From: Escherichia phage WPEC3 | Reading direction: 5' to 3' (one strand) | Sequence record: PV611058 | Length of the DNA stretch: 64,000 nucleotides | Shown here: in pieces, positions 42,933 to 52,952 of the stretch | Layout: every line of letters starts with the position of its first letter | How positions within the stretch are numbered: the first letter of the stretch is position 1 | Position numbers and translations under genes: made by a program | The notes under the pieces: model-generated | The model's input: the letters and a program-made list of their open reading frames with translations, nothing else | Databases searched by the model: none | What the model was told of the DNA's origin: nothing

Positions 42933-42980
42933 ATATCATAAATAAATCAAATGAATGAACGAATTATATGGAGTCCAAAA

Positions 42981-51900: not shown

Positions 51901-52952
51901 AAGCTGAAGTAATTGACAATACCCTATCTGATGGTGATAAGGTTATGATATTCACAACTGATGGTGAAGATTATGTGAGATACCAAAACAATGCATGGGA
52001 AACCATCTTGAGTGTATCAAAAATCAAAACTGACACCACACCAACCTTGTACACAGTAAGAAACACTGCGAACGGAACTGTAGAACTACTAGATAGTACT
52101 GGAGTTGTACTTCGTTATGATAACATCACTAAACAACAACAGAATGAACCAGCAATACCTCTAGCATTGAACATCGTTCGTATTAGAACCTTTGCTGATC
52201 CAGAATTCTTGGTTGATGGTGTTAAGTTGTATGAAACAAATAGAAACTATGCTATCGACGCAATGAACTATGAAGTATTCTACGACACAACACTATATGG
52301 TGGTTCTTATAATGATGGAATTACACCAGATGACGTTGATGTTTGGGTAGTGTCTAACGAGATATTTGAAGTTAATGGTGTTACCATTGATAACGGATAT
52401 AACTTACCAATTACTGGTGCAGGTGTTCTTAGTGAGTTAGTGAGAACCAAAATGACTGATAGTGTGGAAATTAACGTGTTCGAGTATGATGTTGGTATTA
52501 TTCAACCAGTACTGAATGCTGAAGGGGTATGGGAATATGCATATCCACTAGTTAGTGATACATATATTGGTGTAGTTGGTGGAACAGTAACTAACATTAC
52601 TGCTATCAGTGAAGAAAATACTACTTATGTTTCACAACCAGATTCAGTTAGTCCATATAGTGTTACTAATAATGTTCTATCTGGTGCTGGTGCAAGTATG
52701 AATGATATTATTTCTCTTGGTTTTGAAAAAGTTGAAGTACGTTTTGCAAATAACTTACTCCGTGGGGTAATGTATAGTGCAGAACACGACTTTAAAGAGA
52801 ATGTGACATATTCATTTAATGGCTTGAACTTAGGTAAAGTTAATTTACTAAAACGTTATAGTGTTAACAGTTATCCAATCGAACTATCTGTTTACTCCGA
52901 TAGTTTGCAAATAAGTGGTACTGACATTAAAAATCTATTAGAAGTTAAATAA
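42981..52952 (+). CDS. giant virion structural protein (about 3,320 aa from MTNNFKF; ORF opens at 42951)
   Basis: Single uninterrupted frame of about 10 kb; late-like CATAAATA at 42937-42944 favours the ATG at 42981 (GGAG RBS). Confidence 0.8.
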   Translation: MTNNFKFQPTQMAEAVQKKLFIKRLPEWMQGLEDIQKVSDDVIQQWFNPAENELVDGYIGDMGSPAAAGNIFLHESTVARQLYQLSSAYVSRNDDSSIRSIQFYDDLVGYMNHYGALTENESRLFNGKFYSWTPPINPNKMNNYSSYLWDSKNSYNITTPDYIVMERGAENGNTWSLQNFWYTLGETLEDGTILTEELMQDSRFVRARAPIIEYNKNIELMNYGTKFRGTVDLFSDIIKPEDIVQKDINSGIRIDGIIPQDGMRILFTSIGNNGENNRIYKVYVKRMQDGTRVYGLALDPDEESESRPSGEPQDGDVVLIIKGNEFGNSSMYWDGSHWIQAQSKTSVNVFPQFQLYDRNGVKLNNTTTYPSSTFTGSSLFGFKINYNYATDSVYGYNIELGDYNYYTYENFLQSTRYTYEHLGVEVEIDGLYYYNVIGEGNTMNLETDWVRSTEYSKQYVKQTPQVERTVMFRVFSTVYDMESFKDPVEGMYAYVIEVDRTYQYYKAERETYLDWHVIVGDGVQSVKYNHTFELAQKVLDNSDDIIELVVDGVEIKEYTKTVVNNQVQSITIDSSVDLDEDSVVQIRTYSSTITPNKELGAYEVPINLQNNPYNSNIEYINQGDYTLHFQDIIQKNITSGSADDFNNYEERLAAGLVNNGVGTKIIQNEASMLPLMAHTANEDIDLFESIMFMQAEYFRFINKFNTQMLRLYEEDPSAFLGNSASNIVDAILTAINMGRDSTFPFYYDNVASTAGFIRAFVPPTPQFLGILQAYTPQKATFLTAGSKSSWYNISHTGIISKAYRVINGVDKMDDVVFELENRIFNSIDLTFKDIDYKPVLNSEDLFPTPYFTGTDYSAEEKKTLLLRGYINFTATNGISNSTHDYDANNWRTWNYTGSYYVVDGQRTEIPARGSWRAIYTDQYGTYRPATHPWEMMGFSQRPTWWNQEYEPTAVQVGEREGDVVYVYEALVMNESGDLVPSGLWDIDGTIGDSSTGTILSGERRGQYDKYKRFGVQPFKITKTGEKTSTGIDICEVEYIAPEVLGLVSGNLDHRAEPWSYGDMGDMEFTYMNTAMFAYDQMLLLYKAKPAQFVNYYWDTRNDNLKPVYTDGSQFLYGETRKRLNFDSTTLVHGEKNTRTIGYQMFVSDYLMYQNKNITTKYGDVVRSSYVNVAHKIGGFTKADQLTFTAKSFGLISQENQTIGLVRSNNIRDEQMSAVKITWNGSAYQIDGYDLVGAKFKYKIPVKNGRKVTLKLEDRTVVHYNEWKSEGTLEYGKIFNTYQEVYTFICGYGEYLKEHGWIFEDVNDSGAQQDWTTIAKDFVIWSQNNLSTGEFISCTPSAANAKFGADFGSVQSVTQNSGGVWSLLDDENQGIRQYEIETSRIGNVFTVRTTSESQKRMALIRLSLSSYEHAVVFDDKTIFGDYIYQPTYGAIQELIKMYGYITGSWTGRLQAPGFIILEAGTLPSFEKLVTDFELYYNSETPVSDVQLQELSNHLIGYQTRDYLQRMISSDVSRVDFYKGFIHDKGTNQVMEKVLRVSKSYDTDEYKALQEWAFKIGTYGNINGKKNLQFKLINDQFKQQPQMVSFDVNATSNGTGNGIVYYGEQGVDSRWITRPNGKFSFPMRSGRSENIQLPDIGPVTLDEISYVTKDFSTAYNDRINYMNNSGEIPDSVWMFKDGNDLWNIFELVDTEVEMLSIVPIENTDVYAEQFCKVTLSDDIPLNDGDYYYFVDETNFMPDTLTIESQYYTAGNDPRVMVVPFDTSITIDFTDPDTRPRLYRYVSRFSTEEMRQEYIDRKYSFKAPQSTLFDRPTTYDERTNITALYLNVFDPINGVIPGAAMQNVTYTSPVDPAQYNSNGELIQAWGADKVGQVWWNTSTAFYLDYTRAIYDADGNVDVDATNEYKRYNWGRLLPHSTVDVLEWVCSPVEPYNWDKYCKDVANKNKNNTMYLPSGTALEDNYSTFLEYDSTTDTYVTKYYFWVRDTIYVPPLHSRTKSCTDIARIIKEPAQLNIPWFAPINESSFILSNMQFEVNDDTSILTVSYYMDNTEVIKHDQYQLCKEGDSYNFNPSIWTSMWNSMIGQETTESGTVIDLLYPLVPNGLGSNKTWFQDVIEARRNFVESANNYYRSQNITTNTVLMDEVFNVKTTEVNPNEVSYRVLTYNSELVIAPESDKFKENDAVLVSTSGVLPNPLSTSSVYFVHIDANGYIHLMNSPSSAGSVVTITLENRGEGQQKMIKQSDYVEALGTSLDMTQYWSLADWYDIGYDKNTAYTQESSLEDANTKNYQVGDIIRITDVDGIWTLYIKAQSRDSVYWKAIGRENSTVELNDMLYADYTVRDANGSLSNREINVRKALALLKNSFDLHQSEIVFDMVKYVHVEQSVVDWVFKTSYIYIVGLEQSLVQNYSNDNLINQIVEYFEEVKPYRTKIRSQIEQKTSDDDLIKGLCNDLDPNGYIFADGTWVKTEKDIWDYEYAQFNEVTQRWEQVGELPSDFVTPNRRFQEIDVIMHYDNTQCKPNDNLASVDVLEEVNKKYQSNAQDVVSNFELQRYKYTFPEYSDEDFDLLVAYQMQLYYPELNVTLGIAYGVNQWYADHADDLVATAEFTETLNRVYKESTQNEMFNDVNHYVQYNTLSNRLKLYTGADDEVIHDEVGCGFSGLTYDDNPSTRLPFGYASSTDYNFGYFEVSSELYKKYVSLIKENNTTATDDEVRIILEVEYGVYSYRHVDEDGNQRFYNDAIHVLSGMRGLYDKDATDHYEKAEEILSRMPIDIHAFTMMPRKYVYVNVNGVYESIPDDQSIDDFMEDKFITDGQLVQLAEINLDDLPLDRNNPMYSDYQHILDSITDAKYYDDMNAFDNLALESQTSELKWEVEGDEVDPYIIDISDINPSGRKIGQIRFTVDGYGFNSVSLVQLRDNSRYKTEGMVIINPYKTTEAIVSIPSYAKIENDISKSYSKYDEKYFYKIKSIVSDTEAEVIDNTLSDGDKVMIFTTDGEDYVRYQNNAWETILSVSKIKTDTTPTLYTVRNTANGTVELLDSTGVVLRYDNITKQQQNEPAIPLALNIVRIRTFADPEFLVDGVKLYETNRNYAIDAMNYEVFYDTTLYGGSYNDGITPDDVDVWVVSNEIFEVNGVTIDNGYNLPITGAGVLSELVRTKMTDSVEINVFEYDVGIIQPVLNAEGVWEYAYPLVSDTYIGVVGGTVTNITAISEENTTYVSQPDSVSPYSVTNNVLSGAGASMNDIISLGFEKVEVRFANNLLRGVMYSAEHDFKENVTYSFNGLNLGKVNLLKRYSVNSYPIELSVYSDSLQISGTDIKNLLEVK

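What the first reader, a model, noticed from the sequence alone, without database searches (positions are those of the whole stretch)
42951..52952. Single ~10-kb ORF (about 3,330 codons) in the baseplate module
One uninterrupted frame spans about 10 kb directly after gp25-like and 1153-aa wedge-region genes. This is several-fold larger than the largest T4 wedge proteins (gp7 about 1,030 aa). It is Asn/Tyr/Asp/Thr-rich with no motif recognisable by eye. It could be a fused wedge-plus-fibre protein or a very large receptor-binding structure. A late-like CATAAATA at 42937 sits 7 nt before the first ATG, which suggests the real start is the ATG at 42981.
Basis: partly seen in the sequence, partly recalled or inferred. 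Interest (0 to 1): 0.65.

Follow-up and report, generated by a model that had tools for sequence, protein, structure and literature searches.

The report
Giant baseplate protein of jumbo coliphage
The 10-kb frame is a real gene for a roughly 380-kDa structural protein of a jumbo E. coli phage, already catalogued as a virion protein of unknown function, and it most likely forms the outer part of the tail baseplate.

Summary
The ORF is real: 42951..52952, 3333 codons, no stops. The likely start is the ATG at 42981 (3323 aa).

- **Identity.** The window is an Asteriusvirus-like jumbo coliphage, 99.8% identical to fEgEco12. The gene is the known "largest ORF" of RaK2-like phages (121Q gp582, PHROG 10938).
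- **Virion evidence.** Homologues were found by mass spectrometry in phAPEC6, CBB and PA5oct virions.
- **Selection.** dN/dS against 121Q is 0.08 along the whole length.
- **Family.** The 149-aa N-terminal module defines at least 1345 protein clusters, almost all 2200-6300 aa.
- **Gene order.** The order gp25-like, about 1150-aa gp6-like, then the giant gene holds in six lineages.
- **Conservation.** Residues 1-2450 are conserved family-wide. The last 870 aa evolve faster but stay collinear in all 71 isolates of nine host genera, so they do not behave like a swapped receptor-binding module.
- **Known folds.** No repeats, fibre or beta-helix were found. No sequence, profile or fold match to T4 gp7, P2 gpI or Mu gp48 was found, although the model of residues 1-1200 is confident (pLDDT 85).

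Best reading: a peripheral wedge or baseplate scaffold sitting where gp7 sits in T4. Homology to gp7 is not shown. The gene is known, its mechanism is not, and interest is moderate.

The parts
42981..52952 (+). Probable true CDS of the giant virion protein: 3323 aa plus stop, about 382 kDa by analogy with phAPEC6 gp245.
   Evidence: ORF and translation. The start matches RefSeq 121Q gp582 and PHROG 10938, whose alignment begins at residue 11 of the long ORF. dN/dS is 0.083.
42951..42980 (+). Ten upstream in-frame codons starting at the first ATG. Probably not translated.
   Evidence: There is no Shine-Dalgarno sequence before 42951. The late-promoter-like box ends 7 nt upstream. Homologues start at the second ATG.
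42970..42973 (+). GGAG ribosome-binding site, followed by a 7-nt spacer before the ATG at 42981.
   Evidence: Read directly from the sequence.
42937..42944 (+). CATAAATA, a candidate T4-type late promoter -10 box.
   Evidence: Of the 9 YATAAATA sites in the window, 7 lie outside long ORFs and upstream of a same-strand gene. A gp55-like late sigma factor gene is present at 31439..32380 on the minus strand. Promoter function is inferred, not shown.
42907..42928 (+). Terminator-like hairpin followed by a T-run, after the gp6-like gene.
52955..52980 (.). Bidirectional terminator-like hairpin shared with the convergent ClpA-like ATPase gene.
   Evidence: both strands.
42981..43427 (+). N-terminal module, residues 1-149. 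It is the family signature and the proposed anchor to the gp6-like wedge subunits.
   Evidence: A profile of this module finds 1345 clusters, and in almost all of the 150 best hits that are listed it sits at or near the N-terminus of 2200-6281-aa proteins. An insertion hotspot follows residue 149. Residues 1-80 are low-confidence helices in the AlphaFold model. The anchor role is inferred.
42981..50330 (+). Conserved core, residues 1-2450, shared by the whole family.
   Evidence: BLAST coverage map and conservation profile. The AlphaFold model of residues 1-1200 has pLDDT 85 and pTM 0.79.
48174..48350 (+). Main insertion hotspot, residues about 1732-1790. Relatives carry inserts of hundreds of residues here, some with FG-GAP repeats.
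50331..52949 (+). Faster-evolving C-terminal region, residues 2451-3323, specific to the RaK2-like clade.
   Evidence: Not alignable to distant homologues. Identity drops about two-fold compared with the core. It is still collinear in 71 isolates of 9 host genera. The AlphaFold model has pLDDT 64 and shows small beta and helical domains.
39439..42900 (+). gp6-like baseplate wedge subunit (1153 aa), the conserved upstream partner gene.
   Evidence: phrog_10646 and phrog_219. 121Q gp583 is annotated 'T4 gp6-like'.
38941..39336 (+). gp25-like wedge or sheath-initiator gene.
   Evidence: PF04965.

Best explanation
The ORF encodes a low-copy structural protein of the tail baseplate. It is probably present in six copies, one per wedge. 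It sits where gp7 (T4), gpI (P2), gp48 (Mu) or Tri2 (pyocin) sit, both in the gene order and probably in the particle.

Proposed mechanism, all inferred:
1. The universally conserved N-terminal module (residues 1-149) docks onto the two gp6-like subunits of each wedge.
2. The conserved 2450-residue core builds the outer rim of the baseplate as one polypeptide. This is the mass that T4 assembles from gp7, gp8, gp10 and gp11, and that phiKZ assembles from many small proteins.
3. The clade-specific C-terminal 870 residues and the insertion hotspots face outward. They would provide docking sites for the fibres, and in marine relatives they carry carbohydrate- or adhesion-type modules.

Shown: it is a real, strongly constrained gene, a virion component in three relatives, tied to gp25 and gp6 genes, and neither fibrous nor repetitive.

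Inferred: the location in the wedge, the copy number, the contact with gp6, and the fibre-docking role.
For: Gene order:
- The order gp25-like, about 1130-1320-aa gp6-like, then the giant gene holds in six lineages. These are the window, 121Q, TARA contig L003, L004/L005, L006 and L007, and PA5oct.
- The gp6-like and giant genes often abut or overlap.
- In marine contigs and PA5oct, fibre-type genes follow the giant gene (PF07484 Collar, or a 'T4-like gp10' note).
- P2 has V-W-J-I-H and Mu has 45-46-47-48-49, so the giant gene sits in the I/48 slot.

Virion evidence from relatives:
- phAPEC6 gp245, 381.9 kDa, 17 peptides (PMC7247149).
- CBB_236, 21 peptides (PMC5259590).
- PA5oct gp355, annotated 'ESI-MS/MS'.

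Other points:
- The CBB paper's table of T4-homologous core genes lists, among baseplate wedge and fibre proteins, only gp6, gp25 and gp53, with no gp7-gp12 homologue; the same paper identifies a gp5-type hub protein by domain.
- Solved myophage wedges are two gp6-like chains plus one gp7-like peripheral chain that carries the fibre docking sites (Pam3, PMC9942802; phiKZ, PMC13250141).
- The N-terminal module sits at or near the N-terminus in almost all of the 150 listed best hits, out of 1345 clusters found. Its first 80 residues are predicted as low-confidence helices, as expected for a segment that folds on assembly.
- pTM of 0.79 over 1200 residues indicates a compact body, not beads on a string.
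- dN/dS is 0.083.
- A late-promoter-like box, a terminator on each side and a late sigma factor gene nearby fit late structural expression.
Against: - hhalign of ten family segments against T4 gp6, 7, 8, 9, 10, 11, 12 and 53 gave nothing above 5% probability.
- The N-terminal profile against P2 gpI, Mu gp48 and T4 gp7 gave 0.5% probability or less.
- Pfam found nothing.
- PDB sequence and profile searches found nothing.
- Residues 1201-2123 were not modelled.
- No direct localisation exists for any homologue. The true gp7-like subunit could be another small unannotated virion protein.
Confidence: 0.55

Rival explanations
1. It is an outer-periphery scaffold only. The protein would be a baseplate component that binds outside a conventional wedge heterotrimer, like gp27, gp139 or gp130 of phiKZ. 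A different, small, still unannotated protein would be the real gp7/Tri2 equivalent.
For: - No gp7-like sequence or fold was detected.
- phiKZ shows that jumbo phages can add large peripheral layers to a normal (gp87)2-gp128 wedge.
- Several unassigned virion structural proteins lie nearby, at 55371..56879 and 58730..59830.
Against: - The tight and very widely conserved adjacency to the gp6-like gene, often overlapping it, is what is seen for true gp7-like genes.
- No other candidate gene is conserved in that slot.
Confidence: 0.27
2. It is a receptor-binding protein, a wedge-fibre fusion, or a tail fibre or whisker. The protein would extend from the tail and bind the host surface, acting as a primary specificity determinant. 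It could also form the hair-like tail whiskers seen in CBB and phAPEC6.
For: - Marine homologues carry CBM_5_12, FG-GAP and Laminin_G_3 modules.
- The C-terminus evolves about twice as fast as the core.
Against: - No internal repeats.
- No fibrous, beta-helical or coiled-coil stretches.
- The C-terminal 873 aa are collinear at 99% coverage or more in 71 phages of Escherichia, Klebsiella, Salmonella, Erwinia, Yersinia, Serratia, Cronobacter, Pectobacterium and Xanthomonas.
- dN/dS is 0.13 or below everywhere.
- RaK2's specificity maps to gp526-534 and gp098 (PMC10253068).
- From my own recollection, not checked here, no tail whiskers have been reported for family members such as RaK2 and PA5oct (family membership).
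Confidence: 0.1
3. It is not a baseplate protein at all. It could be a tape measure, an internal or ejected protein, or a head component. PHROGs files the family under 'head and packaging'.
For: - The PHROG category label.
- No direct localisation data exist.
Against: - The models are mixed beta and alpha globular domains, not the long helices of a tape measure.
- The gene sits inside the hub, gp25, gp6 and fibre block in all lineages examined.
- The PHROG category label is automatic and generic.
Confidence: 0.05

Closest known systems
121Q gp582, PBECO4, phAPEC6 gp245, CBB_236, the RaK2 homologue and PA5oct gp355 (PHROG 10938, 'virion structural protein')
   Same: - Full-length orthologues. 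The PHROG match covers residues 11-3330 with E = 0.
- 82% DNA identity to 121Q.
- Same neighbouring genes.
- Detected in virions by mass spectrometry.
   Different: Nothing essential differs. This window's copy is the fEgEco12-type allele, 86% amino-acid identical to the 121Q type. None of these homologues has an assigned function or structure.
T4 gp7, and the minimal versions P2 gpI, Mu gp48, pyocin Tri2, T6SS TssG, Pam3 gp23 and phiKZ gp128
   Same: - Gene position immediately after the gp25-like and gp6-like genes, and before fibre genes in several relatives.
- Expected to be a peripheral, low-copy baseplate component that carries fibre attachment sites.
   Different: - 3 to 19 times larger.
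- No detectable sequence, profile or fold similarity.
- Participation in the helical core bundle is untested.
Outer baseplate periphery of phiKZ (gp27, gp26, gp139, gp130, gp157)
   Different: phiKZ uses many copies of several 100-900-aa proteins. Here a single polypeptide of about 3300 aa would do the job. No homology was found.
CBA120 TSP4 N-terminal anchor and assembly domains (PDB 7rfv)
   Different: The match covers one small domain only and is below the usual significance thresholds. The rest of the protein is unrelated, and it has no tailspike body.

Membership tests
PHROG 10938: giant virion structural protein of RaK2-like, PA5oct-like and Atu_ph07-like jumbo phages | Full-length profile match | tested here: met
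   E = 0, 5473 bits, residues 11-3330 against profile positions 1-3324. There are 240 homologues and 91 phage records.
PHROG 10938: giant virion structural protein of RaK2-like, PA5oct-like and Atu_ph07-like jumbo phages | Present in purified virions | not testable with these tools
   Shown only for the homologues phAPEC6 gp245, CBB_236 and PA5oct gp355.
gp7 / gpI / Tri2 / TssG, the third subunit of the wedge heterotrimer | Gene placed directly after the gp25-like and gp6-like genes | tested here: met
   Six lineages. Compare P2 W-J-I and Mu 46-47-48.
gp7 / gpI / Tri2 / TssG, the third subunit of the wedge heterotrimer | Sequence or profile similarity to T4 gp7, P2 gpI (PF09684), Mu gp48 or TssG | tested here: not met
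   hhalign gave 5% probability or less. There was no Pfam hit even at E of 10 or below for 20 N-terminal sequences.
gp7 / gpI / Tri2 / TssG, the third subunit of the wedge heterotrimer | Fold similarity to a solved gp7-like chain | tested here: inconclusive
gp7 / gpI / Tri2 / TssG, the third subunit of the wedge heterotrimer | N-terminal helices join two gp6-like chains in a core helical bundle and trifurcation unit | not testable with these tools
   This needs a multimer prediction or cryo-EM. The definition is taken from the Pam3 and phiKZ papers.
Tail fibre, tailspike or receptor-binding protein | Fibrous or beta-helical trimer-type architecture, or sequence repeats | tested here: not met
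   Self-BLAST finds no repeats. The models show globular mixed domains. No fibre or spike body appears among the fold hits.
Tail fibre, tailspike or receptor-binding protein | Distal domain exchanged between phages with different hosts | tested here: not met
   The C-terminal 873 aa are covered at 99% or more in all 71 isolates of 9 host genera, at 38-99% identity.
Tape measure protein | Predominantly long alpha-helical chain whose length scales with the tail | tested here: not met
   Secondary structure is mixed and beta-rich. At 3323 aa the protein is far too long for a tail of about 110-120 nm (tail dimensions).

The most novel reading that the evidence does not exclude
A whole clade of jumbo myoviruses would have replaced the canonical gp7-like wedge subunit and the multi-protein baseplate periphery with one non-homologous polypeptide of about 3000-6000 residues built from folds not yet seen in the PDB. 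The clade includes RaK2-like, PA5oct-like, Atu_ph07-like and many marine phages, at least 1345 protein clusters. This would be a third architectural solution for contractile-tail baseplates. In it, the wedge rim, the fibre platform and, in marine members, the adhesion modules would form a single chain.
Probability: 0.3. Interest if true: 0.65.

Novelty: new variant of a known kind. Interest (0 to 1): 0.42.

Why it matters
All contractile injection systems solved so far share a (gp6)2-gp7 wedge. How jumbo phages enlarge their baseplates is known only for phiKZ-type phages, which use many small proteins.

This protein is the single largest component of RaK2-, 121Q- and PA5oct-type virions. It is conserved across more than a thousand environmental lineages, and neither a solved structure nor a recognisable domain is known for it.

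Locating it would show three things:
- How these phages, several of which are therapy candidates, anchor their branched fibre networks.
- Whether the universal wedge plan holds for them.
- What the large block of apparently new folds does.

For annotation, the practical outcome is small. The gene is already called 'virion structural protein'. 'Putative baseplate peripheral (gp7-position) protein' is a justified refinement, as is moving the start to 42981.

Tried and rejected
1. Pfam on the whole protein and on 20 N-terminal modules: no family.
2. PHROGs on the N-terminal modules at E of 10 or below: only the protein's own family.
3. PDB sequence searches found nothing meaningful. These used the single sequence, the N-terminal profile and the full-length profile.
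4. hhalign of ten family segments against T4 gp6, 7, 8, 9, 10, 11, 12 and 53 found nothing. hhalign of a 261-sequence N-terminal profile against P2 gpI and gpJ, Mu gp47 and gp48, and T4 gp6 and gp7 also found nothing. My first run used a wrong flag and was discarded.
6. Self-BLAST for repeats and tblastn for paralogues in the window: none.
7. The search for homologous proteins with the C-terminal 873 aa returned no hit, although identical sequences are in that database. I treat this as a tool anomaly. tblastn against phage genomes replaced it.
8. Alignments of 53 full-length homologues were too large for structure prediction, so 24-sequence alignments were used.
9. The shared 'LLP' motif near the N-terminus of P2 gpI, Mu gp48 and this family was noted. 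It was rejected as evidence because the profile alignment is not significant.
10. Tape-measure, whisker and head-protein readings were considered and rejected. The reasons are given under the rival explanations.
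Full report
**Observation**

The window holds one open frame at 42951..52952 on the plus strand, 3333 codons long, with no stop in the translation. At 36% GC an open frame of this length has a chance probability of about 1e-104.

It follows these upstream genes:
- a gp5-like hub/lysozyme gene at 35736..38399
- a small lysozyme gene at 38437..38925
- a gp25-like gene at 38941..39336
- an 1153-aa gp6-like wedge gene at 39439..42900

The composition is rich in D, T, S, N and Y (7.2-7.8% each).

**Start, promoter and terminators**

- CATAAATA lies at 42937-42944.
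- GGAG lies at 42970-42973, 7 nt before the ATG at 42981.
- The RefSeq CDS of 121Q gp582 and the PHROG profile both start at this second methionine.
- YATAAATA is not over-represented in the window (9 sites against 13 expected).
- However, 7 of the 9 sites lie outside long ORFs and upstream of a same-strand gene.
- A gp55-like late sigma factor gene sits at 31439..32380 on the minus strand.
- Hairpin-plus-T-run terminators flank the gene at 42907-42928 and 52955-52980.

I infer a monocistronic late transcript that starts at about 42950, with translation from 42981 giving 3323 aa. All residue numbers below count from 42981.

**Source and prior knowledge**

The gene is 99.1-99.8% identical over its full length to nine coliphage records, including fEgEco12, EC.P1, WPEC5, Turkey3 and Ecwhy_1. 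It is 82% identical to 121Q, PBECO4 and phAPEC6 of the genus Asteriusvirus. In those records it is annotated 'hypothetical' or 'virion structural protein'. It matches PHROG 10938 end to end.

Homologues were detected in purified virions:
- phAPEC6 gp245: 381.9 kDa, 17 peptides, 7.6% coverage (PMC7247149)
- CBB_236: 21 peptides (PMC5259590)
- PA5oct gp355: annotated 'ESI-MS/MS'

The CBB authors used 'the largest ORF' to orient genomes. So the gene and its presence in the virion are already known. No paper I found assigns it a place or a function.

**The gene is real and constrained**

Against 121Q, both proteins are 3323 aa with no indels. dN/dS is 0.083 overall and 0.03-0.13 in every 300-codon bin. 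A few records split the gene into many small ORFs, for example 11 in CMSTMSU and 13 in K64-1 RefSeq. The frame is intact in all other relatives, so these splits look like sequencing or annotation errors.

**Family anatomy**

A search of 5.8 billion proteins gave 240 homologues. The 120 listed are 2780-5638 aa long.

- BLAST and MAFFT maps show that residues 1 to about 2450 are shared by all listed homologues (24-86% identity).
- Residues from about 2450 to 3323 align only within the RaK2-like group.
- Insertion hotspots lie after residue 149, near 758 and 1268, and at about 1732-1790, where relatives carry inserts of hundreds of residues.
- In marine homologues, an FG-GAP repeat falls in the 1732-1790 insert and a CBM_5_12 module near residue 1268. 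Laminin_G_3 also occurs in the family, but its position was not mapped.
- A profile of residues 1-149 searched against 1.84 billion representatives found 1345 clusters at E of 0.001 or below, and 1080 at 1e-10 or below.
- In almost all of the 150 best hits that are listed, the module lies at or near the N-terminus of proteins of 2200-6281 aa. The short hits are probably contig fragments.
- Among cultured phages the family also includes Atu_ph07, Sinorhizobium phage Phosso, the PA5oct group, Salicola SCTP-2 and XacN1.

**Gene context**

The order gp25-like, then a gp6-like gene of about 1130-1320 aa (DUF8360), then the giant gene holds in six lineages. These are the window, 121Q, three kinds of marine or environmental contigs, and PA5oct. 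The last two genes often abut or overlap.

In the marine contigs and PA5oct, the next genes are a protein of about 200 aa and fibre-type proteins (PF07484 Collar, or a 'T4-like gp10' note). This mirrors V-W-J-I-H in P2 and 45-46-47-48-49 in Mu. There the protein after the gp6-like one is the gp7-like wedge subunit, and the fibre gene comes next.

The CBB paper's table of T4-homologous core genes lists, among baseplate wedge and fibre proteins, only gp6, gp25 and gp53, with no gp7 to gp12 homologue. The same paper identifies a gp5-type hub protein by domain.

**Tests for known families**

- Pfam finds nothing in the protein or in 20 N-terminal modules, even at E of 10 or below.
- PDB sequence and profile searches find nothing.
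- hhalign of ten family segments against T4 gp6, 7, 8, 9, 10, 11, 12 and 53 is negative. So is hhalign of a 261-sequence N-terminal profile against P2 gpI and gpJ, Mu gp47 and gp48, and T4 gp6 and gp7.

**Structure models**

*Residues 1-1200.* AlphaFold2 with a 24-sequence alignment gave a confident model (pLDDT 85, pTM 0.79). Residues 1-80 are the exception: they are low-confidence helices.
- Foldseek found no hit at E of 0.001 or below. Its best hit was CBA120 TSP4-N at E 0.022.
- T4 gp7 did not appear.

Self-BLAST shows no repeats.

**The C-terminus is not a typical specificity module**

tblastn with residues 2451-3323 finds exactly one place in each of 71 phage genomes. Their hosts span Escherichia, Klebsiella, Salmonella, Erwinia, Yersinia, Serratia, Cronobacter, Pectobacterium and Xanthomonas. 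Coverage is always 99% or more, at 38-99% identity. The region evolves about twice as fast as the core but remains under purifying selection.

In RaK2, host recognition has been mapped to gp526-534 and gp098. The long-fibre anchor gp528 binds a baseplate partner that has not yet been identified (PMC10253068).

**Interpretation**

Solved myophage wedges consist of two gp6-like chains and one peripheral gp7-like chain. Their N-terminal helices bundle together, and the peripheral chain holds the fibres (Pam3; phiKZ).

The giant protein has the position, the virion presence, the always-N-terminal conserved module and the compact body expected of that peripheral subunit, enlarged about three-fold over T4 gp7. 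Six copies (2.3 MDa) plus twelve gp6-like chains (1.6 MDa) fit a baseplate of about 36 by 15 nm (CBB dimensions; the arithmetic is mine). This is comparable to the roughly 0.7 MDa per wedge that T4 builds from gp7 to gp12.

I therefore favour a single-chain wedge periphery and fibre platform in the gp7 slot (confidence 0.55).

Homology to gp7 is not shown, and one defining feature, sequence or profile similarity, was tested and not met. So I do not file the protein as a gp7 family member.

The rival explanations are:
- An outer scaffold bound to a conventional wedge whose third subunit is still unidentified (0.27).
- A fibre or receptor-binding role (0.10).
- A non-baseplate role (0.05).

**Novelty and score**

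The ORF itself is already known and annotated. What is not known is its location, fold and role. The evidence points to an unusual variant of a known kind of component. Interest is moderate (0.42). It is a good cryo-EM target and a very large uncharacterised family, but nothing here overturns current understanding.

Noticed in passing
window 39337-39438, compared with L001 7721-8485: 121Q carries an HNH endonuclease gene (gp584, annotated 'protein associated with group I intron') between the gp25-like and gp6-like genes. This window has only a gap of about 100 nt there, so the homing-endonuclease insertion is absent from this lineage.
   Followed up: partly
window 52986-55298 (minus strand): A 770-aa ClpA-like double AAA+ ATPase (phrog_4871, 'ATP-dependent protease') lies convergent to the giant gene and shares its terminator hairpin. 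The same arrangement is found in 121Q (gp581). It could be an assembly chaperone for large structural proteins. It is not present at this position in PA5oct or in the marine contigs.
   Followed up: partly
window 8490, 18657, 19866, 21766 (minus strand); 27713, 38412, 42937 (plus strand): YATAAATA boxes lie almost only in intergenic DNA upstream of same-strand genes: 7 of 9 sites. A gp55-like late sigma factor gene sits at 31439-32380 on the minus strand. Together these suggest T4-type late promoters in this phage.
   Followed up: partly
GenBank records MH494197 (CMSTMSU), NC_027399 (K64-1) and OQ411014 (EJP2): The orthologous gene is annotated as 11 or 13 separate hypothetical proteins in CMSTMSU and K64-1 RefSeq. 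These are probably frameshift or annotation errors. In EJP2 it is annotated 'D-alanyl-D-alanine carboxypeptidase', which is probably a mis-annotation.
   Followed up: no
P0096 residues 1456-1484 and 2478-2512; P0112; L003, L006: Marine homologues of 4500-5600 aa carry CBM_5_12 and FG-GAP modules at or near two of the insertion hotspots. Laminin_G_3 also occurs in the family, but its position was not mapped. The giant gene is followed there by a 'Collar'-domain fibre-like gene. This hints that in those phages the giant protein itself may touch glycans.
   Followed up: partly
window 35736-38399 and 38437-38925: The gp5-like hub protein combines an OB-fold (Phage_base_V), a DUF2345 domain, a weak M23 peptidase match and a C-terminal lysozyme domain. 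A second, free-standing 162-aa lysozyme gene follows directly.
   Followed up: no
tool behaviour: the search for homologous proteins with the C-terminal 873 aa returned no hit at E of 0.001 or below, although proteins containing the identical stretch were returned. I treated this as a tool artefact, not as biology.
   Followed up: yes
window 33467-35722: A 751-aa virion structural protein (phrog_11190) lies between the gp53-like and gp5-like genes. Its length would suit a tape measure for a tail of about 110-120 nm, or a gp27-like hub. It remains unassigned.
   Followed up: no
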